From: a virus
Lineage: Duplodnaviria; Caudoviricetes
IMG/VR virus record: IMGVR_UViG_3300025410_000024
Coordinates: 1-54,920 of that record
Reading direction: 5' to 3' (one strand)
DNA length: 54,920 bases
This document shows positions 11,189 to 26,592 of this stretch, piece by piece (the first letter of the stretch is position 1; each line of letters starts with the position of its first letter). Both the position numbers and the translations under genes were made by a program. The notes below the pieces were generated by a model that saw only the letters and a list, made by a program, of their open reading frames with translations, was not told the DNA's origin and ran no database searches.

Positions 11189-11296
11189 ATGAACGGAATT
11201 AAATTATTTTTGACAATATTAGGATTATTCATAGGAGCTATCTTGCTACTATTGGCAGGGTGGTATTTGGAACAATTGGTTAGGGAATGGCTATGA
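11189..11296 (+). CDS. 35-aa single-TM peptide (not in ORF track)
   Basis: GAGGT SD; LFLTILGLFIGAILLLLAGWYL; ATGA coupling to next gene. Confidence 0.65.
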   Translation: MNGIKLFLTILGLFIGAILLLLAGWYLEQLVREWL

Positions 11297-11514
11297 ACAA
11301 ATGGGATAACGATAATTTAGTATGGATGCTGACCTGCTCGGAGTCAGAGTTTTCAGAGTGGTGCAATCAGGCCTCCAATGACGATATTGCCTATGCCCTA
11401 GAGTTAATGGGTGCTAGAAAAGCAACCCTAGCCCTGTACGAAGCTGAGTTGATGGACGATGTTGCGAATTTACAACAGGCCAAAGAAGTACTTGATCGTT
11501 TTAGGTTGAAGTAG
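11293..11514 (+). CDS. hypothetical protein
   Basis: ATGA overlap; start MNKWDND. Confidence 0.75.
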   Translation: MNKWDNDNLVWMLTCSESEFSEWCNQASNDDIAYALELMGARKATLALYEAELMDDVANLQQAKEVLDRFRLK

Positions 11515-11551
11515 TATAATACACACATACACAAACAAACAGGAGCACACT

Positions 11552-11722
11552 ATGATTACCCAAGCACTAGAAACAGTTACAGCAATCAGCCAAGTATTAC
11601 AGATGCCTATGTTAGAGACTTTGCTGTACATTAGAGAGCACACAGAAGAATTCAGTCTCACAGAGTTGCGCGATTACTACATCGTGATGGCAGACTTTGA
11701 ACGCCTGTTGACACCTGCTTAA
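11552..11722 (+). CDS. 56-aa protein MITQALET... (not in ORF track; likely paralog of 2605..2781)
   Basis: Promoter 11492-11520, AGGAG SD. Confidence 0.8.
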   Translation: MITQALETVTAISQVLQMPMLETLLYIREHTEEFSLTELRDYYIVMADFERLLTPA

Positions 11723-11763
11723 TTTCGCAGTATAATACATTTACTTTAACAAAGGAGCAGACT

Positions 11764-11856
11764 ATGTTAGTAGAAGCATTTATGTTATCTTTTCCATTAT
11801 GGTTCATTTTGCTGGCAATGCTAATGGCAATTGTAGCGGTTGACGGAATGAAATAA
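11764..11856 (+). CDS. 30-aa single-TM peptide with its own promoter (not in ORF track)
   Basis: Promoter 11708-11736, AAGGAG SD; MLVEAFMLSFPLWFILLAMLMAIVAVDGMK. Confidence 0.7.
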   Translation: MLVEAFMLSFPLWFILLAMLMAIVAVDGMK

Positions 11857-11898
11857 ATCGGTTATAATAACCACATGTTAAGCAAAAAGGAGTTGAAT

Positions 11899-12048
11899 AT
11901 GTCAAACGCAAATAACGTCAGCAAATTTATTGTTTGGGTAGGCGGCGTAGCTGATTATGAAGGCGATGATTTAAATCAGGCCAAAGCAGTCTATAAAGAG
12001 TGGATTTCACAAAACTACGATGATGTCATTTTGGAAGTAGTGGCATAA
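11899..12048 (+). CDS. 49-aa protein MSNANNVSKFIVWVGG... (not in ORF track)
   Basis: Promoter 11840-11868, AAGGAG SD. Confidence 0.75.
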   Translation: MSNANNVSKFIVWVGGVADYEGDDLNQAKAVYKEWISQNYDDVILEVVA

Positions 12049-12142
12049 TCACACTTGTTGCTAAAAAACAACACTTTTCGGTTGCCCAAAAACACAAAAT
12101 CGGTTATAATACATACATCAACAACGCATTAAGGAGCACACT

Positions 12143-12502
12143 ATGTTCGCACTAGCAACCAAGGAAGCATTCAATTTAACAGCAGTACAAGACGCGCTCA
12201 ACGAAGCAGGCATTCAAGCTCGCACAGCGGCCAAAGACTTCTACAGCAAACACGGTGATCGTGATGCTTGTGGCTTTGCTTGGGTCAACGTGTACGGCGT
12301 ACGTTCAAACTCAAAGCTGGGCAAGGCCTTACAGGCCGCAGGCTTCCGCAAAGACTACACAGGTGCCTTGTGCTTGTGGAACCCCAGCCAAATGGGCACA
12401 CAAAGCATCTCAATCCTGGAAGCGGGTGCTGTGGCCTACGCAGATGTGATCAAACAGCGCCTAGGACTTGAGCAGGTCTACGCAGGATCAAGATTAGATT
12501 AA
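12143..12502 (+). CDS. hypothetical phage protein (CGFAWV motif)
   Basis: DACGFAWV...SRLD; TAAGGAG SD. Confidence 0.85.
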   Translation: MFALATKEAFNLTAVQDALNEAGIQARTAAKDFYSKHGDRDACGFAWVNVYGVRSNSKLGKALQAAGFRKDYTGALCLWNPSQMGTQSISILEAGAVAYADVIKQRLGLEQVYAGSRLD

Positions 12503-12518
12503 GGGCGGTAGTTGTGTT

Positions 12519-12557
12519 TACCAGGCAGGAGCGCCGTAAGTCCTGGTATTTTTTTTT
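12519..12557 (+). terminator. putative terminator
   Basis: TACCAGG/CCTGGTA stem followed by a T9 run. Confidence 0.6.
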
Positions 12558-12567
12558 GGAGTCGACA

Positions 12568-12807
12568 ATGATGTCAATGAAAATGAGAGCTTTTTGTGAT
12601 GCTATAGTATATACCGTGGCTTTGATCCTGGCCGCTGTGGCTATTAAGGCGGCAGGTGATTGGTTAGAGGCCAATGCCACTATAGAAGAACTACACACCT
12701 TTTGTAACCTGTGCCTGATAGGATTTGCTGTATATATGTTTTACACATTCCGATTGAGCCAACTGGAAACCCGGGAAACATTGAAGAAGTTTTCGGATAA
12801 ACTGTAA
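12568..12807 (+). CDS. small 2-TM membrane protein
   Basis: GGAG SD before ATG 12568; two hydrophobic segments. Confidence 0.65.
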   Translation: MMSMKMRAFCDAIVYTVALILAAVAIKAAGDWLEANATIEELHTFCNLCLIGFAVYMFYTFRLSQLETRETLKKFSDKL

Positions 12808-12872
12808 TTGACTGCTACAGTGAATCACAGTATAATACACACTTGTTAAATAAATTATCAAAGGAACCAACA

Positions 12873-13739
12873 ATGGCAAAAGCAAATACTCGTCCCGGCA
12901 AGACAGCAGAGATCTTAGAGTTCGACACAGATGCTATCCGTGCACGAGAAAAAGAAGTCGCCAAGGAATCAGATGATTCAATCATCGAGCGTCTACGTGA
13001 GCGTTTTCAAATCTTAACGGATATGACACGAGCAGTCAAGCAAGGAGACATTCGTGCTATGATTGTCAGTGGCCCACCCGGAGTTGGTAAATCCTTTGGT
13101 GTTGAAGCAGTACTAGAAAAGGATGGTTTATTTGACAGTCTCGCAGAGCGCAAGCCCAAGTATGAAATCGTCAAAGGTGCGATGAGCAGTATCGGTCTTT
13201 ATGCCAAGTTATACGAGTACAGCCAATCAGGCAATGTAGTGGTGTTTGATGACTGTGACAGTATCCTTATGGAGGACTTATCATTAAACATCCTTAAGGG
13301 TGCCTTAGACTCCAGCAACAGACGCTTCATCAGCTGGAACACAGACAGTCGTATCCTACGCTCAGAGGGCATTCCAGATCGCTTTGAGTTCTGTGCAGGT
13401 GCTATCTTTATCACCAACATCAAGTTCGAGCACGTACGATCAAAGAAGCTCAGAGATCACTTAGACGCCCTGGAAAGCCGTTGCCACTACATTGATCTAC
13501 AGATGGACACAACCAGAGAGAAGCTACTCCGCATCAAGCAGATTGTAGGAGACGGTATGTTGGACAAGTACGAGTTCCACGACGCTGTCAAAGCAGAGAT
13601 TGTAGAGTTTGTAGAAAGCAATGCCGATCATTTACGTGAGTTGAGTCTGCGTATGGTCCTGAAGATTGCAGATTTGAAAAAGAGCTTTCCCAACAACTAC
13701 CAGTCTATGGCACGTACTACTTGTTTCCGTAGGGCCTAA
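12873..13739 (+). CDS. AAA+ family ATPase
   Basis: Walker A GPPGVGKS, Walker B VVFDDCD, sensor ITN, ALESR arginine finger. Confidence 0.9.
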   Translation: MAKANTRPGKTAEILEFDTDAIRAREKEVAKESDDSIIERLRERFQILTDMTRAVKQGDIRAMIVSGPPGVGKSFGVEAVLEKDGLFDSLAERKPKYEIVKGAMSSIGLYAKLYEYSQSGNVVVFDDCDSILMEDLSLNILKGALDSSNRRFISWNTDSRILRSEGIPDRFEFCAGAIFITNIKFEHVRSKKLRDHLDALESRCHYIDLQMDTTREKLLRIKQIVGDGMLDKYEFHDAVKAEIVEFVESNADHLRELSLRMVLKIADLKKSFPNNYQSMARTTCFRRA

Positions 13740-13742
13740 TAT

Positions 13743-13985
13743 ATGACAATGCGAAACCTACAGCGTACGATTATCATAGTGCTTATTTGTGCTGTGCTGT
13801 ACTTACTAGGAGCGGAGATCAATGCCCAGTTTTGGGCAATCTCCAGCATACTAGCACTAACAATATGCCTAGAGTTCCTAGCATACACATCAGGAATGGC
13901 TGATGGTATTGAAGCATATATGCGTATGTCCTTGGAACAACGAACCCGTTTAGAACAATTACTCAAAGAAGACGACTTAAAATGA
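13743..13985 (+). CDS. 2-TM membrane protein
   Basis: Two hydrophobic helices. Confidence 0.7.
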   Translation: MTMRNLQRTIIIVLICAVLYLLGAEINAQFWAISSILALTICLEFLAYTSGMADGIEAYMRMSLEQRTRLEQLLKEDDLK

Positions 13986-14236
13986 TCACAACTAAACAGG
14001 CCTATAGTCCAGTATGTACATACCTAGGAAATGCAGTCAGACTAGAATGCCAATGTAATAAACCCAGCATAGAGAACAAGAGCTACTGTGAAGAACACGT
14101 TTGGACAGTATATCAAAAGAACAGTATGCTAGGACGACGTGTCAAGGACACTCGTGTAGCCAACAGCGTACACCTTTGGGAAAGCCTGTTTAATGAAGCT
14201 GTAGAAGAACTTATCGCAGAAGGAGAAATAGTATGA
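13982..14236 (+). CDS. Cys/His protein resembling the GcrA C-terminal domain
   Basis: CTY...C...SYCEEH..VYQ spacing; ATGA overlap. Confidence 0.5.
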   Translation: MITTKQAYSPVCTYLGNAVRLECQCNKPSIENKSYCEEHVWTVYQKNSMLGRRVKDTRVANSVHLWESLFNEAVEELIAEGEIV

Positions 14237-14427
14237 AAGACCTAGCAGTTATCCTAATATTCCTGGGTGCTTTTGCCCTAATAGTATTTGCACCCTTTGC
14301 TACTGTATGGGCGTTGAACACGCTGTTCAGTGGACTAGGATTGAATATTCCTTATACATTCGAAACATGGTGTGCTGTATTGATCCTAGGAACGTTCCTG
14401 CGAGCCAATGTAAACATCAAGAAATGA
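14233..14427 (+). CDS. small membrane protein
   Basis: AAGGAG SD, hydrophobic. Confidence 0.75.
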   Translation: MKDLAVILIFLGAFALIVFAPFATVWALNTLFSGLGLNIPYTFETWCAVLILGTFLRANVNIKK

Positions 14428-14674
14428 TGCTCCGGTGTACCTGGTCTGCTGTCTAAGGTGGGGTGGGTTGGGTACATTTTTACAAGTGTTGTTTTTGCGC
14501 AACAAATGCAATGCCAAACTTTTCAAAAATTTTTCTAAAAATTTTTCCAAAAACCACCTTAAAAAACTTCGACTTAGATTAAAACGGCCTGGGGTCTATA
14601 TTTCCAGACCTTGAAATTTTTGCGTCGCAAATTTTTGCCCTATATATAGACCTCGGGCTAACTGTGCTAACTAT

Positions 14675-14953
14675 ATGTATATAACCCCTTTACACAATAT
14701 ACGCACACACTCAATGGACTTACTACACACTCTTGTTCCACGTTTTTTCAGTATTCTATTAAGTTGGATAGACACTGGAAATCTTCGTAACCGCTTATAT
14801 ACGCTAGAACAACGTGTAGAAATACTGGAGACTGCTCTCAGCGACATAGAGCGTATAAACAGTAAAAATGCTCGTGATCCACTTGTACAGGGCATAGTTG
14901 ATCGTGTAAACAGGGTAGAAAAAGCTTCTGAAGATTTAAAATCTGGGGTTTAA
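14675..14953 (+). CDS. possible small coiled-coil protein
   Basis: LEQRVEILETALSDIERI heptads; no clear SD. Confidence 0.45.
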   Translation: MYITPLHNIRTHSMDLLHTLVPRFFSILLSWIDTGNLRNRLYTLEQRVEILETALSDIERINSKNARDPLVQGIVDRVNRVEKASEDLKSGV

Positions 14954-15222
14954 AAATTTTGCGCAGTAAATTTTTGACTGTGTATATAGAGGTTTATGCC
15001 CGGTCATACATTGATCTATACGCTAGTACTAGATCATCTAGACTGTATATGTACTGTATTTCTACTGTGTGTTATACTGTGAATATATAGTATAAAGAGT
15101 ATATAAGAGTTAGACCCACTCCGATAAAAAGGGTTTACCGATTTTTTTGCGCTTCGCGCTTCGCGTTCTTGGGCCTAATCTAACCCAATCTGAGCTAGGA
15201 CTACACGCTAATAAATAAGTGT

Positions 15223-16326
15223 ATGACATTACCATCTTATCCCAGTTCTCTAAGTTTAAACCAGATTGAGCAGGAATTTACCTGCAATGGATCATACTGT
15301 AGCCTGTGTAACCCAAAATCATTGAGCGAATTTTACGCTTCTCCCTGTGGGAGAGTTGTCAGCGGTACAATTGGTTATCCCAATGGTGTAGCTACTCCTA
15401 TACCCAGTTCGGGTGCTTTGAGCATCGATAACTTCCACGGGGCCAAGGCAGCCTGTATGCTTGTACTTAACAGCACACAATCTTGGACTGTGCCCGCGGG
15501 CGCTAGTTGTATAACTGTACTACTAGCCGGGGGAGGAGGGGGTGGGGGCTCTACTGTAGGTCATGGTGGTGATGGTGGCGGGGGTGGGGGCGCCGGCGGA
15601 ATAGTTGCCACAACACTATCAGTTAATCCCGGAGATACTTACTGTGTTGTGGTTGGTGGTGGGGGTGCCGGGGGCAGTGCTACTACATTAGGAGATTGGG
15701 GTAGTAATGGTGGATATACCTGTTTTTGCGGACCGGGTGGAAGTTGGCTTGCAGGAGGCGGCGGCGGAGGGGGTGGCTCACACTACGGCGGTTATGGCTA
15801 TAATTATTCTGGAAGAAACGGAGCCAGTGGTGGAGGAGCCAGTGCGTACTTTGGCAATACTTATAATTGGACTCCGGGGGCAGCCACCTATGGGATACAA
15901 GGTAACCGAGGCGGTTGTCAATGCGACAACGGCACAAATGGATCAGGTGGCGCAGTGTGTACTCCTGGAGGAGACTACGGGCAAGGCACCGGAGGACAAG
16001 GACTTCATTTTTATTCAGTGTCCGCTCCTGGATGCTATTGTGTTGGTGGGGGTGGGGGCGCCGGCGGAGGATTCACCGATAGTCCTAGCGGATTTACTCC
16101 CTCTAGTATATTCGGACAAGGCAAGCCAGGTGGACAAGGATACGGAGCCGCTGGCGGAGATGGGGCCGCGGCCACCGGAGGAAACGCACTACCTGGAGCA
16201 GATGCTGTGGTTAATCGAGGAGGTGGAGGTGGAGGCGGAGGTGGACACTTTTATGATACCAACGACGGAGCCGGAGGCGGGCAAGGTGGCTCGGGTGTAG
16301 TAGTAATTGCACTAGGTCGACCCTAA
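15223..16326 (+). CDS. glycine-rich, Cys-enriched virion/fibre-like protein
   Basis: Repeated GGGGGG/GAGG tracts, C-terminal GGSGVVVI; TAAATA late promoter 15212-15217. Confidence 0.8.
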   Translation: MTLPSYPSSLSLNQIEQEFTCNGSYCSLCNPKSLSEFYASPCGRVVSGTIGYPNGVATPIPSSGALSIDNFHGAKAACMLVLNSTQSWTVPAGASCITVLLAGGGGGGGSTVGHGGDGGGGGGAGGIVATTLSVNPGDTYCVVVGGGGAGGSATTLGDWGSNGGYTCFCGPGGSWLAGGGGGGGGSHYGGYGYNYSGRNGASGGGASAYFGNTYNWTPGAATYGIQGNRGGCQCDNGTNGSGGAVCTPGGDYGQGTGGQGLHFYSVSAPGCYCVGGGGGAGGGFTDSPSGFTPSSIFGQGKPGGQGYGAAGGDGAAATGGNALPGADAVVNRGGGGGGGGGHFYDTNDGAGGGQGGSGVVVIALGRP

Positions 16327-16337
16327 GGATTAAAATT

Positions 16338-16784
16338 ATGGCACATTATGCTAAAATAGAAAAAGGTATAGTACAAACAGTTATTGTTGCAGATGCTGAC
16401 AATATTGCTGGAGCCGACGGTACTTGGATTCAGGTCAGCTACAATACTCGCGGTGGAATACATTATGGTCCTGATGGACAGCCTGATGGCGGAGTTGCAT
16501 TGCGTAAAAATTATCCCGGAATAGGTTGGTGCTATGATTCTGTGCTAGATTGTTTTTATCCACCAAGGCCTTTTCCTAGTTGGACATTGGATACTGACAC
16601 CGCTATGTGGAATCCTCCCATACCTAGGCCCACGGAACTACCCCCACAACCTTCGGGTTCTCAAAGAATAATAGACTGGAGATGGTTTGAACCTGAACTA
16701 ACCTGGGTCCCTGCAGATCAAATCTTTTCAAAGATTTCTGAGTTCCGAACTTCAAAACTAACTATTCCAACCACACAACTATAA
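16338..16784 (+). CDS. fibre-associated protein, possible assembly chaperone
   Basis: MAHYAKI...WIQVSYN...LRKNYPGIG...FYPPRPFPSW pattern following a Gly-rich gene. Confidence 0.65.
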   Translation: MAHYAKIEKGIVQTVIVADADNIAGADGTWIQVSYNTRGGIHYGPDGQPDGGVALRKNYPGIGWCYDSVLDCFYPPRPFPSWTLDTDTAMWNPPIPRPTELPPQPSGSQRIIDWRWFEPELTWVPADQIFSKISEFRTSKLTIPTTQL

Positions 16785-16799
16785 AAAAGGACAATAACA

Positions 16800-17192
16800 A
16801 TGGCAGATCCACAAGTACAAATTGGCTCAGTATCTAACATATATTCAAGACAAACTTTGTTTGTAAATGCAGGGGACAGTGAAACTCAAACATACACATT
16901 TGATAATCTAACCTTGTTGGCCACAGGACAGGTATCTGTGACTGTAAACGGTACTACCACAAATTTTACAGCACCTCATATGATTTATATACAGGCCAAT
17001 AAAACTCATCAGATCACTGCATTGGTAGATAATACATTGGCTTTTTCTGTTCACGTGCTTAGAGATTACACTGACGCAGTTTTAGATCCTTCAATGATTC
17101 CTCAAGGAATTAGCCCACTGGTGTTAAGTCAACCTATACTGTCGCAATTGCCAAATATAAGTTGGTTTGTTAATCCACCACCATCTGTGTGA
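16800..17192 (+). CDS. cupin-fold protein, apparently lacking metal ligands
   Basis: AGD...FDNLTLLATGQVSV...FTAPHMIYIQANKTHQI. Confidence 0.6.
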   Translation: MADPQVQIGSVSNIYSRQTLFVNAGDSETQTYTFDNLTLLATGQVSVTVNGTTTNFTAPHMIYIQANKTHQITALVDNTLAFSVHVLRDYTDAVLDPSMIPQGISPLVLSQPILSQLPNISWFVNPPPSV

Positions 17193-17697
17193 ATTTGATT
17201 TTTTCAAACAGGTCTGTTAGTGTCTGGAGTGCCTGGTTGTAGTCTTTGCTGACCTTGACTGCTATTCCTTTGGCTCGGGTCCATTCTTCACAGTTGCTAG
17301 TACGGTCATCTACTAGTATATCTCCTTGATCACAGTGTACGTGTTTATCGTCTGAATAAGGGCCAAAGCGTACACGAATATCTGGGTAATAGTCGTGAAT
17401 CCACAGTATTTTATCGTGGAAAACATCAGGCATATCGTTGTTACGCGGGATAGCAGTTAATATATACAATTTCCAATTTAGTTCATCACGGAATCGTCGA
17501 GCTAGATCTATCATAGCATCTGCCTGAGGCATCTTGGGCAGGTTCCTATAAAAATTAGGATGGCTCTTTAACTTACTCCAACTAGCATTGTCCCAACGTT
17601 CTTGTTGCGGATGTGTTTTTTCTTTTTTTATTATTTCGCGGGCGCGAGTATCAAAGTCAGCTACTACGCCGTCCATATCTATATAAATTGTTGGCAT
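17170..17697 (-). CDS. HAD-family 5'(3')-deoxyribonucleotidase
   Basis: IYIDMDGVVADF, ILTA, ILVDD; start corrected to MPTIY. Confidence 0.85.
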   Translation of the reverse strand: MPTIYIDMDGVVADFDTRAREIIKKEKTHPQQERWDNASWSKLKSHPNFYRNLPKMPQADAMIDLARRFRDELNWKLYILTAIPRNNDMPDVFHDKILWIHDYYPDIRVRFGPYSDDKHVHCDQGDILVDDRTSNCEEWTRAKGIAVKVSKDYNQALQTLTDLFEKIKFTQMVVD

Positions 17698-17704
17698 TGA
17701 ATTC

Positions 17705-18397
17705 CTATATACTAAGTTCTTGATCGTGTAATTTATCAATTAGTGTTAGAATACCAGCTAGTGTGTCATCATTGCGAAGGCTTTTATAAACTAAATTCGG
17801 AATACTAAATTCTCCTGCTTTTGTACTGTGCAATCCTTGCTTCCTGTACATACGCAGTATTTTTACAGCCTTGCGACAAATTATTAAATTTCCTGTTTTA
17901 ATGGCCTGTGCCAGAATCTTTTTCCAAACACTGACCATATGCTCTAGTTCTTTTTGATCGTACTCGGGAATAGCCGAACTGGGTTTTTTAATCCAACGTT
18001 CTTGTAATATGCTGTAGGTACTACTTACAGCAGGTTCATTAGAATTTTCAATATACAATTCTACAGGAATACCGTGCACAGATATATTGTAGTCTTTTTT
18101 ATACAGTAATCTTTTAGTATCAAACAATTCATCAACTTCTCTATCACATTGAACAGAACCGTAATCTGCTATGATATGCAGATCAAGATCACTTTTATTT
18201 GTGTAGGTATAGTTAGCGTTCCCGCCACTTACTACAATATCAACAACCTGTACAGGAACATCAACAAACGTTATAAAATCTTCGGCAATGCGTAATAAAG
18301 CTCCGCGCACAGAACTTTTCAATCTTTCTCCGTCCCAGAGCTCGGGGTTAAGTACTTTATTATGGCCAATGGGTTTTTCGAATTCACGTATTTGCAT
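17705..18397 (-). CDS. pol-beta-superfamily nucleotidyltransferase-like protein
   Basis: SGGNANY...SDLDLH...VELY; late promoter 18405-18410. Confidence 0.7.
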   Translation of the reverse strand: MQIREFEKPIGHNKVLNPELWDGERLKSSVRGALLRIAEDFITFVDVPVQVVDIVVSGGNANYTYTNKSDLDLHIIADYGSVQCDREVDELFDTKRLLYKKDYNISVHGIPVELYIENSNEPAVSSTYSILQERWIKKPSSAIPEYDQKELEHMVSVWKKILAQAIKTGNLIICRKAVKILRMYRKQGLHSTKAGEFSIPNLVYKSLRNDDTLAGILTLIDKLHDQELSI

Positions 18398-18428: not shown

Positions 18429-18989
18429 ATGAACAAGAAAAAGTACACAGGACATCTATTAGTTTCAAATCCTCTTAACCCTAGAGATGAATTAGAACAA
18501 AGCGTGATTTTAATAGTTACGCATACTGATCAACTAGGAATAGGATTACAAATAAATAACCCTCAAGAAGATCTAGATCTTGGAAAAATAAGCACAGGTA
18601 TGGGGCTTCCATTTTATTCAAAAGATCCTGTATATTACGGTGGTAATATGAATCAAAATAAAATTCACGTTATACACAGTCTAGATTGGCGCAGTCTTAG
18701 TACTGTACAGTTAACCAAAGATATTGGAATTACCAACGATATATCTATATTGAGTGCAATTAGTCAAGGTGAAGGCCCTGAGTTTTACAAAGCCTGTTCA
18801 GGATATTGGTTATGGGAAGAAGGTCGATTAGACATTCAACTAGATCCTAGAAATCATCTAGAGCACGAGCCACATAAATGGGAAATTGCTCCAGCGAATA
18901 TAAACAATGTATTCAAAATACATCCAGATGAACTTTGGGAAAGAAGCATTGAAGCTTCTGCCCGTTATCATACCAGCACCTGGCTTTAA
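18429..18989 (+). CDS. YqgE/AlgH (DUF179) family protein
   Basis: GHLLVS...SVILIVTH...GLQINNP...YYGG...GYWLW..G.L. Confidence 0.8.
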   Translation: MNKKKYTGHLLVSNPLNPRDELEQSVILIVTHTDQLGIGLQINNPQEDLDLGKISTGMGLPFYSKDPVYYGGNMNQNKIHVIHSLDWRSLSTVQLTKDIGITNDISILSAISQGEGPEFYKACSGYWLWEEGRLDIQLDPRNHLEHEPHKWEIAPANINNVFKIHPDELWERSIEASARYHTSTWL

Positions 18990-20449
18990 TCTTTTTCTGG
19001 ATTAATCTTTGTCAGCAAACTACGGATCAATGGAGCCGATCCTGAAGATTTACTTGCAATCTTGTTCACACTTACTCCCTGAGTTGGATCTACAATAACT
19101 CCATCATCATCTACAGATTCTGTGGTAGTTGATACTACGCTTGTTCTTTTAAATCCAGCATATGTATTACTGGTAGGAGTTGTTCTTCCGCCACCTTGAC
19201 TAAAACTAGTGCTATCTTCTCCATCTTCAGGATCTGTAATACGTAGTGTATCTACATTAAAATCTAATTCTACTTTTTGTCCAACACCACTACTAGAACG
19301 TGTTTTCATAAACTGAATTTGATAACGTCCACGTTCTTTCATGGCCCTGCTAGTAAAGATACCAATTACATTATCAGCAGTCATAATCTTCGATAACCCA
19401 CCCGAAATATGACTGTGATCAAATTCAATTTCTTCAACAGCACTACGATTCAATTGACTGGCCGTAACTGTAATACATTGTGTTTCCATAGCCAAATTAC
19501 GAATCTCTTCTGATACATATTTGTCTTTTACAAACAGATCACTAGGACTAACCTTCACACTTAAAGGCATCATCAAATCGAGGTAATCTATTAACAAAAC
19601 GTCTGGTTTTACGCCTTTTTTGACCTGATATTCCTTCAAATAGGCTCGAATATCGTTACAATTTTTACCTGAAGGCATATACTTCACTTGTAGATTTCCT
19701 GACTTTTTTCCAATCATTTTAACCTTAAGTTCTACATCCTCAATATTCTTAAAAATCTCACGAGTACCTATACCTGTGGTCATACTATCAAGACGCATAC
19801 TAACTAAACCCTCGCTCAACTCAAATGTTAGATATAATACGTTTAATCCTTGTAATGCCCAGTTAACTCCTAGATTAGCCAAGAACAAACTCTTACCACC
19901 ACCTGAGCCTGCACAAAAGATATTCAATTCTCCACGGTTAAATCCACCATACAGTTTCTTATCAATGCTAGGCCATCCTGTGCTAATTTGTCCATTTCCA
20001 TCTTTGAGCTTAGTAAGCCTTGCCTTAGGGTCTTCAAAATAATCTGTACCCATATCTTTGTTCAAACTAATTTGAATAGCATCTTTGATTAGTTTCTCTA
20101 CAGGGCCATAATCTCCTGATTCTAATAAATCACTGCTTTTAATAATTGCACGTTCGAGTCCTTTGTGTCTACTAAAATTTTCAAACTCATCCATTAACCA
20201 AGTATAGTTTTCTTTTGGTAATGATACTGTATTAAAGTTACTATGTACTGATGCATTAACGATTGCAGGCTCTGGCATCACTTTATATTCGTCAACATAT
20301 TTTGTAATGAACTCTGCAGAGTCTTGTAATTTTTGATCAAAGTTTAATGGATCAAAAATATTTTGACATCTTATAAATGTTTCTGCATCACTGAGAAACA
20401 TTTCAAGATATAATTTCTGCATATCATAATCATAATTTGGTTTATTCAT
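18986..20449 (-). CDS. DnaB-like replicative helicase (T4 gp41-like)
   Basis: AGSGGGKS, LLIDYLDL, TASQLNR, KTRSS. Confidence 0.95.
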   Translation of the reverse strand: MNKPNYDYDMQKLYLEMFLSDAETFIRCQNIFDPLNFDQKLQDSAEFITKYVDEYKVMPEPAIVNASVHSNFNTVSLPKENYTWLMDEFENFSRHKGLERAIIKSSDLLESGDYGPVEKLIKDAIQISLNKDMGTDYFEDPKARLTKLKDGNGQISTGWPSIDKKLYGGFNRGELNIFCAGSGGGKSLFLANLGVNWALQGLNVLYLTFELSEGLVSMRLDSMTTGIGTREIFKNIEDVELKVKMIGKKSGNLQVKYMPSGKNCNDIRAYLKEYQVKKGVKPDVLLIDYLDLMMPLSVKVSPSDLFVKDKYVSEEIRNLAMETQCITVTASQLNRSAVEEIEFDHSHISGGLSKIMTADNVIGIFTSRAMKERGRYQIQFMKTRSSSGVGQKVELDFNVDTLRITDPEDGEDSTSFSQGGGRTTPTSNTYAGFKRTSVVSTTTESVDDDGVIVDPTQGVSVNKIASKSSGSAPLIRSLLTKINPEKD

Positions 20450-21449
20450 TGCTCATTCCTTCTAATTTTTTCTTGAGTAGATTTATTTTTATCTCTCCCG
20501 ATACCTTGTAATGCAGAATTGTGGTTAATACATATAGGCGCCCATATTTTTTCATTGCATCAGAAACATCTTTAACATCATCGCCCCAAGGTGGTAAACT
20601 AGCCGACCAATTATTAGCAATCGCGGCTTTGAGTAATTTAGCTCCGGGTTTGTCTCTATCTGGTACTACAATAACTTCTCTACCTAATGCGTTCAATCTT
20701 GTAATCTGAGTTTCATTTGGTTCATTATGCATAATTGCACATCCGTCTACTGCTATTGCGTCAAACTGCCCTTCAACTACAATAACATATTTTCTATCAA
20801 CAGTTTGACGATCAATATTGAATACATATCCAGGTTGTGCATCTGTAAGATACTTTGGTTTACCATCTGTGATTTTTCGACCAGTGTATCCAACTATTTT
20901 ACCTTCGTTGTAAAAAGGAATCAATATTCTATCTATATATCCTGGAGAAGGACTCCAAAAGAAATTATCCTTTATAGGATCAAATCCTCTATCTAATATA
21001 TATTGATATATGTCAACTAGTTTAGATGCATACTCTTCTGGTAAATCCGAATTAGCCCATTCTGTTAAAGTTAATGTACCGTCTGGCAATGCTACTTCTT
21101 TAAGTTCAAACGTTAATGTTTTTTTGACAACAGGTTGATCATCTTTGATCTTTAGTGCTACTAAATTTAATTTACCAATGTCGGATTCATTAACTCCGAT
21201 CCATTTGAATAAATTTTTGGTATTTTTACTTAATAATTTTCCTGGACTCCACCCTGCCTTGAATCCACAATTAAAACAATGATATTGGAAACTACCATCG
21301 TGCCCTGTTAATACTCCACCGCGCTTTCGAGTATCTTTTGCCTCTCCATTATTATGACAACAGACTGCATCGAAGCTAATCCATCCGCTAGGAGTTGCTT
21401 TTCGTTTCGCCGGCAGTAACACCATTAGAGTTGTCTGTATCTCGTTCAT
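20442..21449 (-). CDS. DNA primase (T4 gp61-like)
   Basis: Zn finger (CC...HCFNC); TOPRIM VEGQFDA, PDRD, KD. Confidence 0.93.
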   Translation of the reverse strand: MNEIQTTLMVLLPAKRKATPSGWISFDAVCCHNNGEAKDTRKRGGVLTGHDGSFQYHCFNCGFKAGWSPGKLLSKNTKNLFKWIGVNESDIGKLNLVALKIKDDQPVVKKTLTFELKEVALPDGTLTLTEWANSDLPEEYASKLVDIYQYILDRGFDPIKDNFFWSPSPGYIDRILIPFYNEGKIVGYTGRKITDGKPKYLTDAQPGYVFNIDRQTVDRKYVIVVEGQFDAIAVDGCAIMHNEPNETQITRLNALGREVIVVPDRDKPGAKLLKAAIANNWSASLPPWGDDVKDVSDAMKKYGRLYVLTTILHYKVSGEIKINLLKKKLEGMSNE

Positions 21450-22275: not shown

Positions 22276-23394
22276 TTAACTTCTATACAATACTTTGTCA
22301 AATGATCCGTAGTACGTTGGATCGTCATTGTTGCCAGATGCAGGAGCAGTTCCTGGAATATACATTACTCGAATGTAGGTAAACAAGCCATTGAAATTTA
22401 TATAATCAATACCATTGAACCTGTTATAATTTAAAGTTGCTACGGTTGCATACTTTCCAAAGTCTGATGCATTATTTGATAAAGTTGCTTGAATGTATAC
22501 AGTTCCAATATAGTTGGTCATATACATTGCTAATGTATGTAATGCTGTGTTACTTTTAAATTCTGGATAAGCATAAAACGGACCACTTTTATGTTCGTAC
22601 AAATATGTATCTTGATTATAACTTTTTAAGAAGCTAACTATTTCTTGACTAGGTTTTAATCGAGGATATACTTCTTCAGTAAGATGCACGGTTCCTGAAA
22701 TTCCGTAATATGTATTTGCATAAGCAGGCAAATATGTATTATCATTTGGATCTTGATATACTACACTATATGTATATTCTCCGCGCTCGAGATTAACAGT
22801 ATCACTTTCTGTGAATGTAAGTTCACCTAATCCTTTTAATCCTATTGTGTTGATTACAACTCCTGTACTTGTAGATACAGGTTTTAATGTATAATTGTTC
22901 AAAGTAACAATATTAGTGATGGGTGAAAAAACAGTAGATGTTGTTATTGAAGATGTAGTAACTGTGGTAACAATTGTAGCAATTGATCCTGTACCTATAC
23001 TTAAGATAGTGGAGTTGGCAGCAATACCATATCCAAAGACCGCTTGGCCTACTGATATATTAGAAACATCGTCGAACGTTAGCACCTGGCTAATACTACC
23101 TTGATTAGCATTAACATTTAAGTATATAGAATCATCTAATACTGTAAGTTCTTTTTGTAACACTAACTCTTGACTTGTATTATCAAACATATTGAATACA
23201 AAAGTTTGTGTATTGCTAATTGGTAATAATTTTTGATCACTGTTTTTAAACTGGATCCTTATCTTGTTTTTAATACCTTTTTGTATTTTTAAATCTCGTT
23301 GGTACATAACTCGGTTAATCCCTAAAACAGTTTCGTCCAAATCTAATATCACGTCGAGTGTATTTGGATATAAATAGATTGGTAAATTTTGCAT
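22276..23394 (-). CDS. putative virion structural protein
   Basis: Beta-rich with Thr-rich insert; late promoter 23400-23405. Confidence 0.6.
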   Translation of the reverse strand: MQNLPIYLYPNTLDVILDLDETVLGINRVMYQRDLKIQKGIKNKIRIQFKNSDQKLLPISNTQTFVFNMFDNTSQELVLQKELTVLDDSIYLNVNANQGSISQVLTFDDVSNISVGQAVFGYGIAANSTILSIGTGSIATIVTTVTTSSITTSTVFSPITNIVTLNNYTLKPVSTSTGVVINTIGLKGLGELTFTESDTVNLERGEYTYSVVYQDPNDNTYLPAYANTYYGISGTVHLTEEVYPRLKPSQEIVSFLKSYNQDTYLYEHKSGPFYAYPEFKSNTALHTLAMYMTNYIGTVYIQATLSNNASDFGKYATVATLNYNRFNGIDYINFNGLFTYIRVMYIPGTAPASGNNDDPTYYGSFDKVLYRS

Positions 23395-23414: not shown

Positions 23415-23798
23415 ATGTCCGTTAACAGTAGTTTTCAAAATAATTATCCGTTTGTTTCGTGTATTAAATCCAACGACATTGAGTATGTTGGAATTATCAT
23501 TAATTTTGACAACTACATAGCAAGTATATACGATATTTCTGTTATTAAAACAGACGACGAAAAACGTGTATTCTTAGAACTAGGTGAGATATGGTGGTGG
23601 GAATCAAATCGTAAAATACCAATAAACATATTTCTTAAAAAAGAAATGCAGTTTTTTAGATATTCTATAAAAACATTCAACAGCAAAGATGTTGAGCTTA
23701 TTTTTGGACCAAGTGTTAATTTAAGCGAAATAGCTGAAAAACGCATAAAACGCAAATCAATTCAGTTGGTCAGAACTCCTAAGAATCCTCGTAGCTGA
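23415..23798 (+). CDS. hypothetical protein (WWWESNR)
   Basis: ORF fills the gap; TATAAATA upstream near 23369. Confidence 0.75.
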   Translation: MSVNSSFQNNYPFVSCIKSNDIEYVGIIINFDNYIASIYDISVIKTDDEKRVFLELGEIWWWESNRKIPINIFLKKEMQFFRYSIKTFNSKDVELIFGPSVNLSEIAEKRIKRKSIQLVRTPKNPRS

Positions 23799-24348
23799 TA
23801 CCTTCGCAGATAAGATTCATCTGAACCACAATTGCCATCGCATATGCAATTGCGTGAGCTTTCTTAAAGTAATAATCTTCGTTGTCTGGTTTTATCCAAA
23901 CTTCGTTTATTACCGTACTCCAATCTTTTCCAATTAAGGAACGTTTTGCAGGACGTATCATTGCTAATACCGCCGCAAGTTGTTCCACAGTTCGTGGCTT
24001 CATTTCTCGTAAAATTGATCCGTAACCATTTACGTGAAACAACAAATTTGTAAAGTCATCTTGTTCTAATAAGTCCCATAGTGGTTCTTGCGACATCAAT
24101 TGTAATAAATGTTCTTCGTTTTTAATACCTTGATAGATGGTAACGTTAAGAAAATCTATCTTGAAGTATCCTCTATCTTCAGCAGATTTATAATCAATAC
24201 TTGCTAATCCTGTTAATGGATTAACTGGAATTTTGTGGCAGTAAGCACCTGTATTATGTTTTTTGATTCCGTCAATGGTTGCAGGAACGTGTTCAATTAC
24301 ATTAAGTAATTTGTTTCTGTCAGCAAAATCAATATCAATATCCGGCAT
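23779..24348 (-). CDS. miniature DnaE (family C polymerase) catalytic-core-like protein
   Basis: PDIDIDF, KIDFL, AMIRP, YFKKAHAIAYA in 189 aa. Confidence 0.85.
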   Translation of the reverse strand: MPDIDIDFADRNKLLNVIEHVPATIDGIKKHNTGAYCHKIPVNPLTGLASIDYKSAEDRGYFKIDFLNVTIYQGIKNEEHLLQLMSQEPLWDLLEQDDFTNLLFHVNGYGSILREMKPRTVEQLAAVLAMIRPAKRSLIGKDWSTVINEVWIKPDNEDYYFKKAHAIAYAMAIVVQMNLICEGISYEDS

Positions 24349-25108
24349 TTTTTATTTCGTTGTATGTTGGTGCATAATTACCGCGATGCTGAACTGTGAT
24401 GCCTGCGGCTATGTTAGCAAATATTATAGCTTTTTCTATATCTTTTGTATATAGGTATTGGACAGTTAAGGCAGCTAAAAATGTATCTCCTGCTCCGCAT
24501 ACATCAGTGACTTCGACTTTTTTGGTTGAATAAAGTGTGCCATTATACATTGCACCATCTCCACCTTTTGTAACAATTAACCTATTAGGCAAACTGGTAG
24601 CAGTACGATATTCTAAATCATTAATTTTAACGTAGGCGTTGTCAAATCTTTTAAGATCTGTTTTCTTTGTATCTATAAACACAGGACATTTAGAATTTTG
24701 AATAATATGTTTGATGTGTTCATAACTTAAAAAACCTTTGTTGTAATCTGAAATTATAATGGCGTTATAGGAATCAATAGGAAATGTAGTTTGCTCATTC
24801 CAAGATGCAATAGATGGTTCGTTATCTACTCTTAATAAATGTTGGCCTGATCGTTGATCTATATATCTAGTTTTTGTAATATTTTCAGTATTAGTAATAA
24901 AATTTGCATTAATATTTAAATTTATAAGATTAAGATTGACATTTGCGGCCATTCCTAACACATCATAACTGTTGACAATTTTAATAACAGGAACAGGAGC
25001 CTCTGGACTTAATCTATCCACAGTTCCTATTTTATATTCATCAGTACAACTATCCCCGATTAATAATACGTTGAATGATATCTGTTGTTGAATGTCCCGT
25101 ATGCTCAT
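24335..25108 (-). CDS. hldA: heptose-7-phosphate kinase (HldE/RfaE domain I)
   Basis: IGD...RLSPEAPVPV...GMAANV...SDYNKG...DVCGAGDTF. Confidence 0.88.
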   Translation of the reverse strand: MSIRDIQQQISFNVLLIGDSCTDEYKIGTVDRLSPEAPVPVIKIVNSYDVLGMAANVNLNLINLNINANFITNTENITKTRYIDQRSGQHLLRVDNEPSIASWNEQTTFPIDSYNAIIISDYNKGFLSYEHIKHIIQNSKCPVFIDTKKTDLKRFDNAYVKINDLEYRTATSLPNRLIVTKGGDGAMYNGTLYSTKKVEVTDVCGAGDTFLAALTVQYLYTKDIEKAIIFANIAAGITVQHRGNYAPTYNEIKNAGY

Positions 25109-25445
25109 AAAATTTTATCTCTTTACAATATTGTGAACCTATAATAGGCTTGTTTCTATAATCAGCACCTTTGACCATAATGTCTGGTTCATATGATTTT
25201 ATAAGGTCAATTAATTCTTCATCATTGCCAAAAAAATAAACTGTGTCTACAAATTTTAAACTTTCTAATATATAACTTCTATCATATTGATCATTGATTG
25301 GTCTATAGATTCCTTTAAGTTCTTTTACTCTACTATCAGTATCTATTGCTACCAACAAATGGTCCCCAAGACTTTTTGCATACTGCAACATCTGTAGGTG
25401 TCCTCTATGCAATAGATCAAATGTACCATTTACAAAAATTTTCAT
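25050..25445 (-). CDS. hldC: heptose-1-phosphate nucleotidyltransferase (HldE domain II)
   Basis: NGTFDLLHRGH...KG..RPI...VKGADY...STT. Confidence 0.85.
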   Translation of the reverse strand: MKIFVNGTFDLLHRGHLQMLQYAKSLGDHLLVAIDTDSRVKELKGIYRPINDQYDRSYILESLKFVDTVYFFGNDEELIDLIKSYEPDIMVKGADYRNKPIIGSQYCKEIKFYEHTGHSTTDIIQRIINRG

Positions 25446-26236
25446 TCGTAATATTTTTTTAATTCTGTTAAATCTGCACAGGTGTATTTTTGATATTGAT
25501 CTTTAATATTAACGGGCATCGGAACATATTCTATATCTGCTGGATATTTTTTAATTATTTCTTTGGCTACTTGTAAAAATGATTTAGGATCTCCTGTGCC
25601 AACATTCCAGATACTTGATTGATCAACATTTAAAAATTTCAAATGTACATCAACTACTGTACGAACAGGAACAAAATCTCTTAGATATAAATTGCTACCT
25701 TCAAATAATTTAATTTTTCCAGTTGTTTGAGCCTGATACTGAAATTTATAATATGGGCTTGCTTGGTCGCCTTTATGCTCTTCTCCTTCTGGTCCATACA
25801 CATTAAAATATCTAAATCCTTGAATATGTCTATTAATAGACTTTGCATATTCTTTGCGTGTTTGAACAAATCTTTCAAACATATATTTGCTCCACGCATA
25901 TGGACTTTTAGGATCTACAGGAGCATCTTCTCTGAAACTACTTGTTAACCCATAAACACTGGCACTACTTGAATATTGAAAATTTACACCATTACTTAAT
26001 GCACTATCTAATAAATTACAACTAAAATCATAATTTTGACGCATTACTTTATCAACATCTTTTTCTGTTGTACTACTAATTGCACCAATATGAATGACCC
26101 AATCGAGTCCAACTGTGGATAGATTATTGTCAGAATCTCCCCACTCGTATGTGGTTATATTATGTCCATCTGATTGTAAAGCTCTATATAGATGTCCTCC
26201 TATAAATCCTTTATGACCAGTTAACAAAATTTTCAT
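25442..26236 (-). CDS. hldD: ADP-L-glycero-D-manno-heptose 6-epimerase
   Basis: TGHKGFIG, GAISSTTE, SSASVYG, YAWSK, RYFNVYG, YQKYTCAD. Confidence 0.85.
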   Translation of the reverse strand: MKILLTGHKGFIGGHLYRALQSDGHNITTYEWGDSDNNLSTVGLDWVIHIGAISSTTEKDVDKVMRQNYDFSCNLLDSALSNGVNFQYSSSASVYGLTSSFREDAPVDPKSPYAWSKYMFERFVQTRKEYAKSINRHIQGFRYFNVYGPEGEEHKGDQASPYYKFQYQAQTTGKIKLFEGSNLYLRDFVPVRTVVDVHLKFLNVDQSSIWNVGTGDPKSFLQVAKEIIKKYPADIEYVPMPVNIKDQYQKYTCADLTELKKYYE

Positions 26237-26592
26237 TTTTGACTATCGCCTTTCATCACACGATAATTATCTTCAACACTGTCAGGAGTGCTAACTTCGA
26301 TAATTGTACCTTCTTCGATGCAAATTATTTGATGAGGTAATAATGGAGGATTATGCCATACATCGCCGGCATTTAAATCTTGTTCATACTGACTAGCGTT
26401 GGCAGTATTGATACAGATAACTTTAAATTTGCCCGAAAGTACATACCAACTCTCGTCTTTCTCTGAATGAAAATGCATACTGAATCTTGCACCTTCGTTG
26501 AACCGCAATAGTTTACCGCAGTATTTGTCATTGGTAGCCCAGATTAATTCTGATCCCCATCCTTTTTCTACATATCCTGATAACTTAGTCAT
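26233..26592 (-). CDS. cupin (mannose-6-phosphate isomerase-like)
   Basis: KGWG.E...SMHFH..KDESW...PH...EVST. Confidence 0.8.
   Translation of the reverse strand: MTKLSGYVEKGWGSELIWATNDKYCGKLLRFNEGARFSMHFHSEKDESWYVLSGKFKVICINTANASQYEQDLNAGDVWHNPPLLPHQIICIEEGTIIEVSTPDSVEDNYRVMKGDSQK

What the first reader, a model, noticed from the sequence alone, without database searches (positions are those of the whole stretch)
23779..24348. 189-aa miniature family-C polymerase core
Seen in order: PDIDIDF (two catalytic Asp), KH..G, KIDFL (third Asp), P.TVEQLAAVLAMIRP, YFKKAHAIAYA. Known: DnaE is over 1000 aa with PHP, thumb, fingers and OB domains. Here the spans between motifs are deleted internally while the frame is intact, which argues against simple decay. 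No gp43-type polymerase is in the window. Inference: subunit of a split polymerase or a repurposed nucleotidyltransferase.
Basis: partly seen in the sequence, partly recalled or inferred. Interest (0 to 1): 0.75.

Follow-up and report, generated by a model that had tools for sequence, protein, structure and literature searches.

The report
Known split mini Pol III, C-half
This 189-residue gene is the C-terminal half of a two-piece, stripped-down bacterial-type DNA polymerase core that a large group of jumbo phages carries beside their main polymerase; it was described by comparative genomics in 2021 and has not been tested at the bench.

Summary
It belongs to PHROG 11778 (E 3e-64). Its AlphaFold model (pLDDT 96.5) aligns over 180-188 of 189 residues to the palm/fingers core of DnaE and PolC (Z 6.1-9.4; next unrelated chain Z 3.3), spanning about 380 residues of E. 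coli alpha. It is under strong purifying selection (median dN/dS 0.13), and D3, D5, K63 and D65 are invariant across 84 diverse homologs.

It is not a whole enzyme. Relatives encode a separate 168-177-aa N-piece (PF07733, GVGRGS motif) 30-224 kb away, which ends where this protein begins. A cognate pair is modelled as one shared sheet (ipSAE 0.92, best control 0.00). The same relatives also carry a family B polymerase. The window is only about 15% of its genome, so the lack of both genes here says little.

Iyer et al. 2021 (PMC7824862) already describe this "minimal", split Pol III alpha of group 2.2 jumbo phages. My searches found no biochemical follow-up.

Added here: a strictly linked convergent 127-aa gene of unknown fold, and conserved synteny with primase and DnaB.

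Interest is modest.

The parts
23779..24348 (-). Gene for the C-terminal piece of the split minimal Pol III alpha (189 aa, P0001)
   Evidence: ORF and translation. PHROG 11778 E 3e-64. Fold match to DnaE/PolC at Z 6.1-9.4. Median dN/dS 0.134.
24325..24345 (-). P2-F8 PDIDIDF: first beta-strand, carrying the catalytic Asp pair D3/D5 plus D7
   Evidence: D3 and D5 are invariant and D7 is at least 90% conserved in 84 diverse homologs. The motif aligns to Taq 461-MPDIDTDF and Mtb 413-MPDIDIDF. In the complex model it pairs with N-piece residues 133-134.
24148..24162 (-). K63-L67 KIDFL: strand carrying the third catalytic Asp (D65) and K63
   Evidence: K63 and D65 are invariant. They align to E. coli K553/D555.
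23950..23997 (-). P118-P133 P.TVEQLAAVLAMIRP: fingers helix ending in the conserved RP
   Evidence: P118 and R132 are at least 90% conserved and P133 is invariant. The segment aligns to E. coli alpha about 620-641. Weak PF17657 finger hit over residues 104-135.
23839..23871 (-). Y160-A170 YFKKAHAIAYA: counterpart of the DnaE FNKSH motif
   Evidence: K162 and H165 are at least 90% conserved. K163 aligns to E. coli K758 and H165 to H760.
23415..23798 (+). Convergent 127-aa gene (phrog_11637, function unknown) whose 3' end overlaps the C-piece gene by 20 nt; a strictly linked neighbour with no demonstrated role
   Evidence: Present in 76 of 80 related loci, always on the opposite strand. Homologous neighbour in Phosso, GAP32 and PA5oct. 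Found in 89 phage records of the same genera.
22276..23394 (-). Virion structural protein-like gene (372 aa), part of the conserved gene order
   Evidence: phrog_14467 E 7.8e-10. Present in 67 of 80 loci. Same position in Phosso, Atu_ph07, GAP32 and PA5oct.
20442..21449 (-). DnaG-type DNA primase (335 aa), downstream in the same orientation
   Evidence: phrog_47 E 4.9e-37; weak PF08275 hit. Present in 64 of 80 loci.
18986..20449 (-). DnaB-like replicative helicase (487 aa)
   Evidence: PF03796 E 1.7e-16; phrog_19 E 1.6e-70.

Best explanation
The gene encodes the C-terminal half of the split 'minimal' DNA polymerase III alpha of group 2.2 (Rak2 / PA5oct / Atu_ph07-like) jumbo phages. This half carries the three metal-binding Asp (D3, D5, D65), K63, and a cut-down fingers module (the RP helix and the FKK.H motif). 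It lacks the first strand and helix of the Pol-beta-type nucleotidyltransferase fold, the part with the GRGS NTP-binding loop. That part sits at the end of a separate 168-177-aa protein encoded tens to hundreds of kb away. The two proteins most likely assemble non-covalently: the PDIDIDF strand of this piece lies beside the ...VWGVGRGS strand of the N-piece to complete the catalytic sheet. No intein is present. The assembled enzyme of about 360 aa has no PHP, thumb, clamp-binding or OB parts. I expect it to be a distributive, template-directed DNA polymerase that works beside the phage's family B polymerase, for example in short primer extension after the DnaG-type primase or in gap filling and repair. 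Shown here: identity, fold, selection, existence and distribution of the partner, and synteny. Modelled only: the heterodimer. Inferred: polymerase activity and its role. My odds: family identity about 0.95; obligate heterodimer about 0.8; DNA polymerase activity about 0.55.
For: Identity and fold. PHROG 11778 at E 3e-64. The family profile hits only Pol III alpha in the PDB, 9 of 9. AF2 model pLDDT 96.5, pTM 0.89. The Foldseek top 16 are all Pol III alpha (E from 4.9e-4), with noise from rank 17. The VIA-align top 16 are all DnaE/PolC at Z 6.1-9.4, rmsd 3.3-4.4, with 180-188 residues aligned; the next row is Z 3.3.

Selection. 276 pairs with 0<dS<1.5 out of 2993 computed give median omega 0.134 (range 0.031-0.319), and 53 of 189 positions are invariant in 78 sequences. 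D3, D5, K63, D65 and P133 are invariant in 84 representatives at 30-61% identity.

Abundance. There are 423 clusters at the 50% identity level.

Partner. A PF07733 piece of 177 aa in Phosso and Atu_ph07, and of 168 aa in G001, ends in GVGRGS...EFL(N/E/R). Its family is equally large, with 7999 of 8000 scored candidates passing, all carrying PF07733. Its phage distribution matches the C-piece: Escherichia 34 and 34, Erwinia 8 and 8, Salmonella 8 and 8, Yersinia 4 and 4, Xanthomonas 4 and 4, Agrobacterium 2 and 2, Klebsiella 11 and 10. Of the 40 listed C-piece records, 18 also appear among the 60 listed (of 121) N-piece records. The two genes lie 30-224 kb apart in 8 phages and about 184 kb apart in G001.

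Complex. The G001 cognate pair scores 0.92 against a best control of 0.00. That mark was reached by 58 of 80 solved complexes and 2 of 110 mismatched pairs. The runs agree in at least 98% of contacts and the partner pLDDT is at least 92. C-piece residues 6-8 touch N-piece residues 133-134.

Other. One natural single-chain form exists (P0213, 375 aa). The replication context is conserved: C-piece, convergent ORF, structural protein, primase and DnaB appear in that order in the window, Phosso, Atu_ph07, GAP32 and PA5oct. PolB is present in Phosso, Atu_ph07 and G001.

Literature. Passages of Iyer et al. 2021 (PMC7824862, sections 3.4.1 and 3.5, Fig. 3 legend) state the same reading.
Against: No biochemical or genetic test of any family member was found. 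The 2026 review PMC13282480 holds none of the search terms, and the PA5oct omics paper has no 'DNA polymerase' passage. The N-piece is not in this window (0 matches), nor in the 151-kb, 43%-complete relative G002; both records are fragments. The complex pass can come from the model's memory of solved DnaE chains, where these strands are neighbours within one chain. The enzyme lacks the thumb, clamp-binding and OB elements that cellular C-family polymerases use to hold primer-template, so templated synthesis is not assured. Pfam gathering scores are not reached (PF17657 14.9 vs 22; PF07733 11.7 vs 23.9). The fused form is a singleton on one 2,415-base contig.
Confidence: 0.7

Rival explanations
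1. The assembled two-piece enzyme is catalytically active but is not a template-directed DNA polymerase. It would be a repurposed nucleotidyltransferase, for example one doing untemplated 3' addition, nucleic-acid end modification, or synthesis of a nucleotide signal or counter-defence molecule.
For: The Pol-beta-type fold is shared by many non-polymerase nucleotidyltransferases (established knowledge). The thumb, clamp-binding and OB parts are missing: the protein ends at the equivalent of E. coli residue about 781, and D5 to K63 is 58 residues against 150 in E. coli. These phages already have a PolB.
Against: The retained non-palm part is the DnaE fingers module, including the RP helix and the FKK.H motif that aligns with FNKSH. 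All 16 top fold matches are replicative C-family polymerases, and no other nucleotidyltransferase reaches Z above 3.3. The gene sits in a conserved order with primase and DnaB in 5 of 5 lineages examined.
Confidence: 0.2
2. The 189-aa protein acts alone or without catalysis, for example as a DNA- or replisome-binding factor that has kept a polymerase-like shape.
For: It folds confidently on its own (pLDDT 96.5). Its gene is never adjacent to the N-piece gene in the phages compared.
Against: The metal-binding Asp and K63 are invariant across 84 divergent homologs, which a non-catalytic role would not require. It lacks the GS-loop half of the fold, so it cannot be a complete nucleotidyltransferase alone. 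The N-piece has the same phyletic spread.
Confidence: 0.06
3. It is a decaying remnant of a captured host dnaE gene.
For: It is short, and matches to the full-length DnaE models are only weak.
Against: Median dN/dS is 0.134. Length is constant at 186-195 aa in 78 relatives. Thousands of clusters exist. It is conserved at 40-51% identity in cultured phages of many hosts. The fold is modelled with very high confidence.
Confidence: 0.01

Closest known systems
Split minimal DNA polymerase III alpha of group 2.2 jumbo phages, C-terminal piece (Iyer, Anantharaman, Krishnan, Burroughs, Aravind 2021, Viruses 13:63, PMC7824862; PHROG 11778)
   Same: Same family: PHROG E 3e-64. It is 40-51% identical to the Atu_ph07, Phosso, PA5oct, GAP32 and 121Q proteins. 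Same size, same start at the Asp strand, same separate N-piece in relatives, and same company of a PolB.
   Different: Nothing of kind. This copy comes from an uncultured phage fragment. It lies directly behind an accessory sugar-nucleotide gene cassette that most relatives lack (8-13 of 80 loci). Its partner is outside the record.
Bacterial C-family replicative polymerases DnaE and PolC (e.g. PDB 2hnh, 3e0d, 5lew, 3f2b)
   Same: Same palm/fingers core fold (Z 8.8-9.4). Same catalytic Asp triad and K, and the RP and FNKSH-type motifs, in the same order.
   Different: About half the residues of the matching region are absent (189 against about 380). The GS-loop half of the palm is on another polypeptide. 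This protein has no PHP, thumb-sized insert, clamp-binding, OB or tau-binding parts. Pfam and NCBIfam cut-offs are not reached.
Cyanobacterial split DnaE joined by a split intein (recalled from the literature, not looked up here)
   Same: A C-family polymerase encoded by two distant genes.
   Different: There, intein halves splice the two products into one full-length enzyme, and the break lies far downstream of the active site (recalled). Here neither piece has room for an intein. The N-piece ends in EFL(N/E/R) and the C-piece starts with MPDIDIDF. The break runs through the catalytic sheet, and assembly must be non-covalent.
Bacillus subtilis DnaE and eukaryotic Pol alpha as primer-extending helpers of the main polymerase (recalled; a functional analogy only)
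   Same: A second, less processive polymerase beside the main replicase. The gene is linked to a DnaG-type primase and DnaB.
   Different: No activity data exist for the phage enzyme. The analogy is an inference from synteny.

Membership tests
Split minimal Pol III alpha of group 2.2 jumbo phages, C-piece (PHROG 11778) | Sequence match to the family model over its full length | tested here: met
   phrog_11778 at E 3e-64, protein residues 3-182 on profile positions 8-193 of 197.
Split minimal Pol III alpha of group 2.2 jumbo phages, C-piece (PHROG 11778) | Stand-alone protein of about 190 aa that begins at the catalytic Asp strand and keeps the Mg2+-binding Asp triad | tested here: met
   189 aa, starting MPDIDIDF. 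Relatives are 186-195 aa. D3, D5 and D65 are invariant.
Split minimal Pol III alpha of group 2.2 jumbo phages, C-piece (PHROG 11778) | A separate N-terminal NTP-binding piece encoded at a distant locus of the same genome | not testable with these tools
   The window has no match, but it is a 15%-complete fragment. The feature is met in relatives: Phosso, Atu_ph07 and G001, and in the listed isolates.
Split minimal Pol III alpha of group 2.2 jumbo phages, C-piece (PHROG 11778) | Genome also carries a family B DNA polymerase | not testable with these tools
   No PF00136 match in the window fragment. Present in Phosso, Atu_ph07 and G001.
Split minimal Pol III alpha of group 2.2 jumbo phages, C-piece (PHROG 11778) | Host genome is a myovirus-type jumbo phage of the Rak2 / Atu_ph07 / PA5oct group | tested here: met
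   The window holds tail sheath, large terminase, UvsX-like, DnaB and primase genes. The nearest isolates are all such phages. CheckV's 15% completeness for 55 kb implies a genome of several hundred kb.
C-family DNA polymerase catalytic subunit (DnaE/PolC) | Palm/fingers core fold with three catalytic Asp | tested here: met
   (Z up to 9.4, 185 residues aligned, rmsd 3.8 to 3e0d_A). Asp triad invariant.
C-family DNA polymerase catalytic subunit (DnaE/PolC) | Complete nucleotidyltransferase palm, including the GS NTP-binding loop, in one polypeptide | tested here: not met
   The protein starts at the Asp strand. The GVGRGS segment is on a separate protein in relatives.
C-family DNA polymerase catalytic subunit (DnaE/PolC) | Curated model cut-offs (Pfam PF07733 and PF17657; NCBIfam DnaE equivalogs) | tested here: not met
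   PF17657 14.9 bits against 22. PF07733 11.7 against 23.9. NF004226 20.3 against 1002.
C-family DNA polymerase catalytic subunit (DnaE/PolC) | PHP domain, thumb, clamp-binding motif and OB domain | tested here: not met
D5 to K63 is 58 residues against 150 between D403 and K553. No other Pfam domain was found. The domain boundaries of E. coli alpha are recalled, not looked up.

The most novel reading that the evidence does not exclude
The mini Pol III may be a three-part machine rather than a two-part one. The strictly linked convergent 127-aa protein (phrog_11637) has a small beta-barrel plus helices and a conserved basic KR.KR..QL tail. It could be a nucleic-acid-binding subunit that stands in for the missing thumb or OB parts. 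The assembly would then act as the Pol-alpha-like first extender of DnaG-made primers before hand-off to the phage PolB.
Probability: 0.1. Interest if true: 0.7.

Novelty: already known. Interest (0 to 1): 0.3.

Why it matters
If the two pieces reconstitute an active polymerase, this would be the smallest known C-family polymerase core, at about 360 residues in two chains. That would make it a direct experimental handle on what the bacterial replicase needs at minimum, and on how C-family polymerases arose (ancestral minimal form or reduction). It would also show that a very abundant group of environmental jumbo phages runs a two-polymerase replisome that mixes bacterial-type and archaeo-eukaryotic-type enzymes. 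The idea is already in print, so the value here is confirmation, structural and selection support, and the linked-neighbour lead. It is not a discovery.

Tried and rejected
1. Pfam, NCBIfam and single-sequence PDB searches gave only sub-threshold DnaE hits. A family profile and a fold search were needed.

2. I looked for the N-piece and PolB in the window and found none. This is uninformative for a 15%-complete record.

3. A search for longer or fused forms gave 1 hit among 836 candidates (P0271, 335 aa with a helicase-C domain, probably a gene-call fusion). The full scan added P0213 (375 aa), which is a singleton on a 2.4-kb contig, so it is only weak 'Rosetta stone' evidence.

4. An alignment meant for folding the fused form (A5) put the N-pieces onto the C-half, and I dropped it. 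The fused form was therefore not folded.

5. The first N-piece alignment (A2) included the two most divergent N-pieces. The complex was instead run with 39 closer N-pieces (A4), so cross-family depth on that chain is low.

6. Convergent 127-aa neighbour: no Pfam family, no Atlas lead, Foldseek best E 0.075, and VIA wide best Z 4.2, with many small barrels near Z 3. No fold can be assigned.

7. Cellular genomes: the alignment query had no usable conserved stretch. The single-protein scan confirmed 14 of 599 pattern stretches, all partial matches (query residues about 40-141, 26-37% identity), most on large contigs or chromosomes, and read as matches to full-length dnaE.

8. The promoter/terminator scan around the gene showed no excess (9 promoter-like sites against 11.8 expected; 0 terminators).

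10. Papers' supplementary files were not opened. Iyer et al.'s supplement may list the family members and neighbours. Whether it already notes the convergent gene is unknown to me.

Full report
OBSERVATION. The finding's coordinates hold one ORF on the minus strand, 23779-24348, with an ATG start, 189 aa and no internal stop. The plus strand of the same span is full of stops. The start codon overlaps the end of the upstream PfkB-like gene by 14 nt, and there is no clear Shine-Dalgarno sequence.

WHAT IT IS, BY SEQUENCE. Curated models of full-length DnaE barely see it. Pfam gives only the finger domain PF17657 at 14.9 bits (cut-off 22). NCBIfam DnaE equivalogs score up to 20 bits against cut-offs of 434-1806. 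A single-sequence PDB search gives four Pol III alpha chains at E 0.03-0.7, with collinear small pieces. The phage family library places it firmly: PHROG 11778, 'DNA polymerase', at E 3e-64 over the whole length. A profile built from 84 diverse homologs (30-61% identical to the query) hits only Pol III alpha in the PDB, 9 of 9, best E 1.2e-5. It aligns K63/D65 with E. coli K553/D555, the RP motif with residues 640-641, and K163/H165 with K758/H760 of FNKSH. The N-terminal MPDIDIDF aligns with Taq 461-MPDIDTDF and M. tuberculosis 413-MPDIDIDF. The first two Asp, D3 and D5, are the invariant ones, and D7 is conserved in at least 90%. Of 85 full-length representatives checked by pattern, 79 have both Asp motifs. 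Two of the six exceptions keep the first two Asp but have N or E in place of the third.

WHAT IT IS, BY STRUCTURE. AlphaFold2 with that alignment gives mean pLDDT 96.5 and pTM 0.89. In Foldseek against the PDB, ranks 1-16 are all Pol III alpha entries (E 4.9e-4 to 0.32), and unrelated noise starts at rank 17. VIA-align on Foldseek's candidates gives 16 top rows that are all DnaE or PolC. The best are Z 9.4 (3e0d_A, rmsd 3.8, 185 aligned, Taq 461-841), Z 9.3 (PolC 3f2b_A, 971-1296), Z 9.3 (5lew, 419-808) and Z 8.8 (E. coli 2hnh, 400-781). The next, unrelated chain has Z 3.3. Almost every residue of the 189 has a counterpart, spread over about 380 residues of DnaE.

IT IS NOT DECAY. From 80 IMG/VR loci (544 of 599 pattern stretches confirmed, the best 80 kept) I extracted 77 full ORFs plus the window's own. 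Three loci (L027, L033, L060) were dropped because no start of the expected form was found. Lengths are 186-195 aa. Nei-Gojobori estimates gave 276 pairs with 0<dS<1.5 out of 2993 computed (3003 possible). Median omega is 0.134, range 0.031-0.319. All pairs involving the window itself are saturated at synonymous sites. Fifty-three of 189 positions are invariant. The family is very large. In the library clustered at 50% identity, 423 representatives pass E<=0.001, 275 pass 1e-10 and 72 pass 1e-30.

IT IS HALF OF AN ENZYME. Among cultured phages, tblastn finds it in 96 records, all below 60% identity. They are all Rak2-like, PA5oct-like, Atu_ph07, Phosso, SCTP-2 and similar jumbo phages. Phosso and Atu_ph07 each hold a second, distant match to the Pol III alpha palm model PF07733, at profile positions 18-98. 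These are 177-aa proteins ending ...GVGRGS..Y.L..IG.H.VN...Y.LDF.EFL(N/E). From memory, in full-length DnaE that segment comes directly before MPDIDIDF, where the window's protein starts. The break therefore runs through the nucleotidyltransferase fold. The GS NTP-binding loop with its strand is on one protein, and the metal-binding strands are on the other. The 270-kb relative G001, whose C-piece is 76% identical to the window's, has a 168-aa N-piece of the same kind. The N-piece family is as large as the C-piece family, with 7999 of 8000 scored candidates passing, all carrying PF07733. The N-piece is found in 121 phage records. The extra records are full-length DnaE of unrelated phages, and the genus counts of the jumbo group match those of the C-piece. 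Eighteen of the 40 listed C-piece records recur among the 60 listed N-piece records. Both lists are samples, so this is a lower bound. The two genes are never neighbours: about 30-34 kb apart in 121Q, GAP32, CBB, XaC1 and Vibrio phage 2.275.O; 43 kb in PA5oct; 182 kb in Atu_ph07; 224 kb in Phosso; and about 184 kb in G001. Neither piece has room for an intein, so assembly must be non-covalent.

COMPLEX MODEL. I ran the G001 cognate pair, with 61 C-piece rows and 39 N-piece rows. It scored 0.92 against a best control of 0.00. That mark was reached by 58 of 80 solved complexes and 2 of 110 mismatched pairs. The runs agree in at least 98% of contacts and the partner's pLDDT is at least 92. The tightest contacts put C-piece residues 6-8, the Asp strand, against N-piece residues 133-134, the strand before GRGS. 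That is the arrangement expected for one sheet shared by two chains. The model supports binding but does not show it. Solved DnaE structures contain these strands side by side within one chain, so the pass may reflect that likeness. One natural single-chain version exists (P0213, 375 aa, N-piece motif followed by ADFDIDT), but it is a singleton on one 2.4-kb contig.

CONTEXT. The window is a whole IMG/VR record of 54,920 bases, linear and 15% complete by CheckV. It carries tail sheath, large terminase, UvsX-like recombinase, helicases, primase and DnaB genes. It has no N-piece and no PolB, which means little for a fragment. Phosso, Atu_ph07 and G001 all have PolB. Downstream of the C-piece the gene order is a convergent small ORF, a virion structural protein, in some phages one further ORF, a DnaG-type primase and a DnaB-like helicase. 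That order holds in the window, Phosso, Atu_ph07, GAP32 and PA5oct, so 5 of 5 lineages examined. This is the basis for placing the enzyme in the replisome, and it is an inference.

LITERATURE. I read passages, not the whole text, of Iyer et al. 2021 (PMC7824862, sections 3.4.1 and 3.5, and the Fig. 3 legend). [quoted passage not shown] They report that it accompanies a family B polymerase, and they suggest a role in synthesis of one strand or in repair, as well as an ancestral-minimal origin. Attai et al. 2018 (PMC6102473, passages) annotate Atu_ph07 gp316 as Pol III alpha. Weinheimer and Aylward 2022 (PMC9123017, one passage) found PF07733 to mark one marine jumbo-phage cluster. Three full-text searches found no paper reporting a biochemical or genetic test. 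The 2026 review PMC13282480 has none of the terms searched, and the PA5oct omics paper has no 'DNA polymerase' passage.

MECHANISM AND RIVALS. Best reading: this is the C-half of an obligate two-chain mini polymerase, a distributive helper of PolB. A repurposed, non-templating nucleotidyltransferase remains possible because the thumb, clamp-binding and OB parts are absent. However, the part kept beyond the palm is the DnaE fingers module with its conserved motifs, and no other nucleotidyltransferase resembles the model. A stand-alone or non-catalytic role fits poorly with the invariant Asp triad. Decay is excluded.

WHAT IS ADDED HERE. First, structural, selection and complex-model support for the published inference. 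Second, the exact break point. Third, a strictly linked partner gene: the convergent 127-aa ORF at 23415-23798 (phrog_11637). It is present in 76 of 80 related loci, always tail-to-tail, and in 69 of 76 within about 30 nt of the C-piece gene's end. It is 45-50% identical in PA5oct and Phosso, and recognisable in GAP32. It occurs in 89 phage records of the same genera. Its model (pLDDT 81) shows a small beta-barrel plus helices and a disordered basic tail, with no confident fold match. Tail-to-tail genes are not co-transcribed, and both may simply be core genes of the clade, so a functional link is only a lead.

VERDICT. The kind is already known from comparative genomics and is annotated as such in PHROGs and by JGI. 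It remains biochemically untested.

Noticed in passing
window 23415-23798 (+): A 127-aa gene of unknown function (phrog_11637) converges on the C-piece gene, with a 20-nt 3' overlap. The pairing is conserved in 76 of 80 related loci and in Phosso, Atu_ph07, GAP32 and PA5oct. The gene occurs in 89 phage records of the same genera. It has invariant WWWESNR and KR.KR..QL motifs, and a small-barrel-plus-helices model with no confident fold match.
   Followed up: partly
window 24335-26592 (-): A sugar-nucleotide cassette lies directly upstream of the C-piece. It comprises a PfkB-type kinase (257 aa), a cytidylyltransferase-like protein matching the PHROG named heptose 7-phosphate kinase/heptose 1-phosphate adenylyltransferase (131 aa), an NAD-dependent epimerase (264 aa) and a cupin (119 aa). 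It looks like an ADP-heptose-type pathway. The first three of these genes are found in only 8-13 of 80 related loci, so the cassette is an accessory insertion.
   Followed up: partly
window 1-18000 versus 18000-54920: Composition and strand switch. The first ~18 kb has 40-47% G+C with mostly plus-strand ORFs. The rest has 29-38% G+C with mostly minus-strand genes.
   Followed up: no
L094 (G001) 899-2004; L009, L010, L011, L012: The N-piece gene has its own conserved company. A GroES-like co-chaperonin follows closely (directly in G001, after one small ORF in Phosso and Atu_ph07), a MazG-like pyrophosphatase is nearby, and in Atu_ph07 a clamp loader lies a few genes away.
   Followed up: no
protein P0213 (375 aa, one 2,415-base contig): A single-chain version of the mini polymerase: an N-piece joined to a C-piece by a linker of about 12 residues. 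It is the only such form seen among 423 representatives.
   Followed up: partly
protein P0223 (233 aa): The first ~107 residues of a C-piece continue into an unrelated C-terminal part containing an RHQLR...GD..Y stretch that recalls pseudouridine synthases (from memory). It may be a real fusion or an assembly chimera.
   Followed up: no
protein P0113 (189 aa, 73% identical to the window's protein): One source labels this protein as coming from a metagenome bin named Synechococcaceae. That is either a hint about the host or a phage contig mis-binned into a cyanobacterial genome.
   Followed up: no
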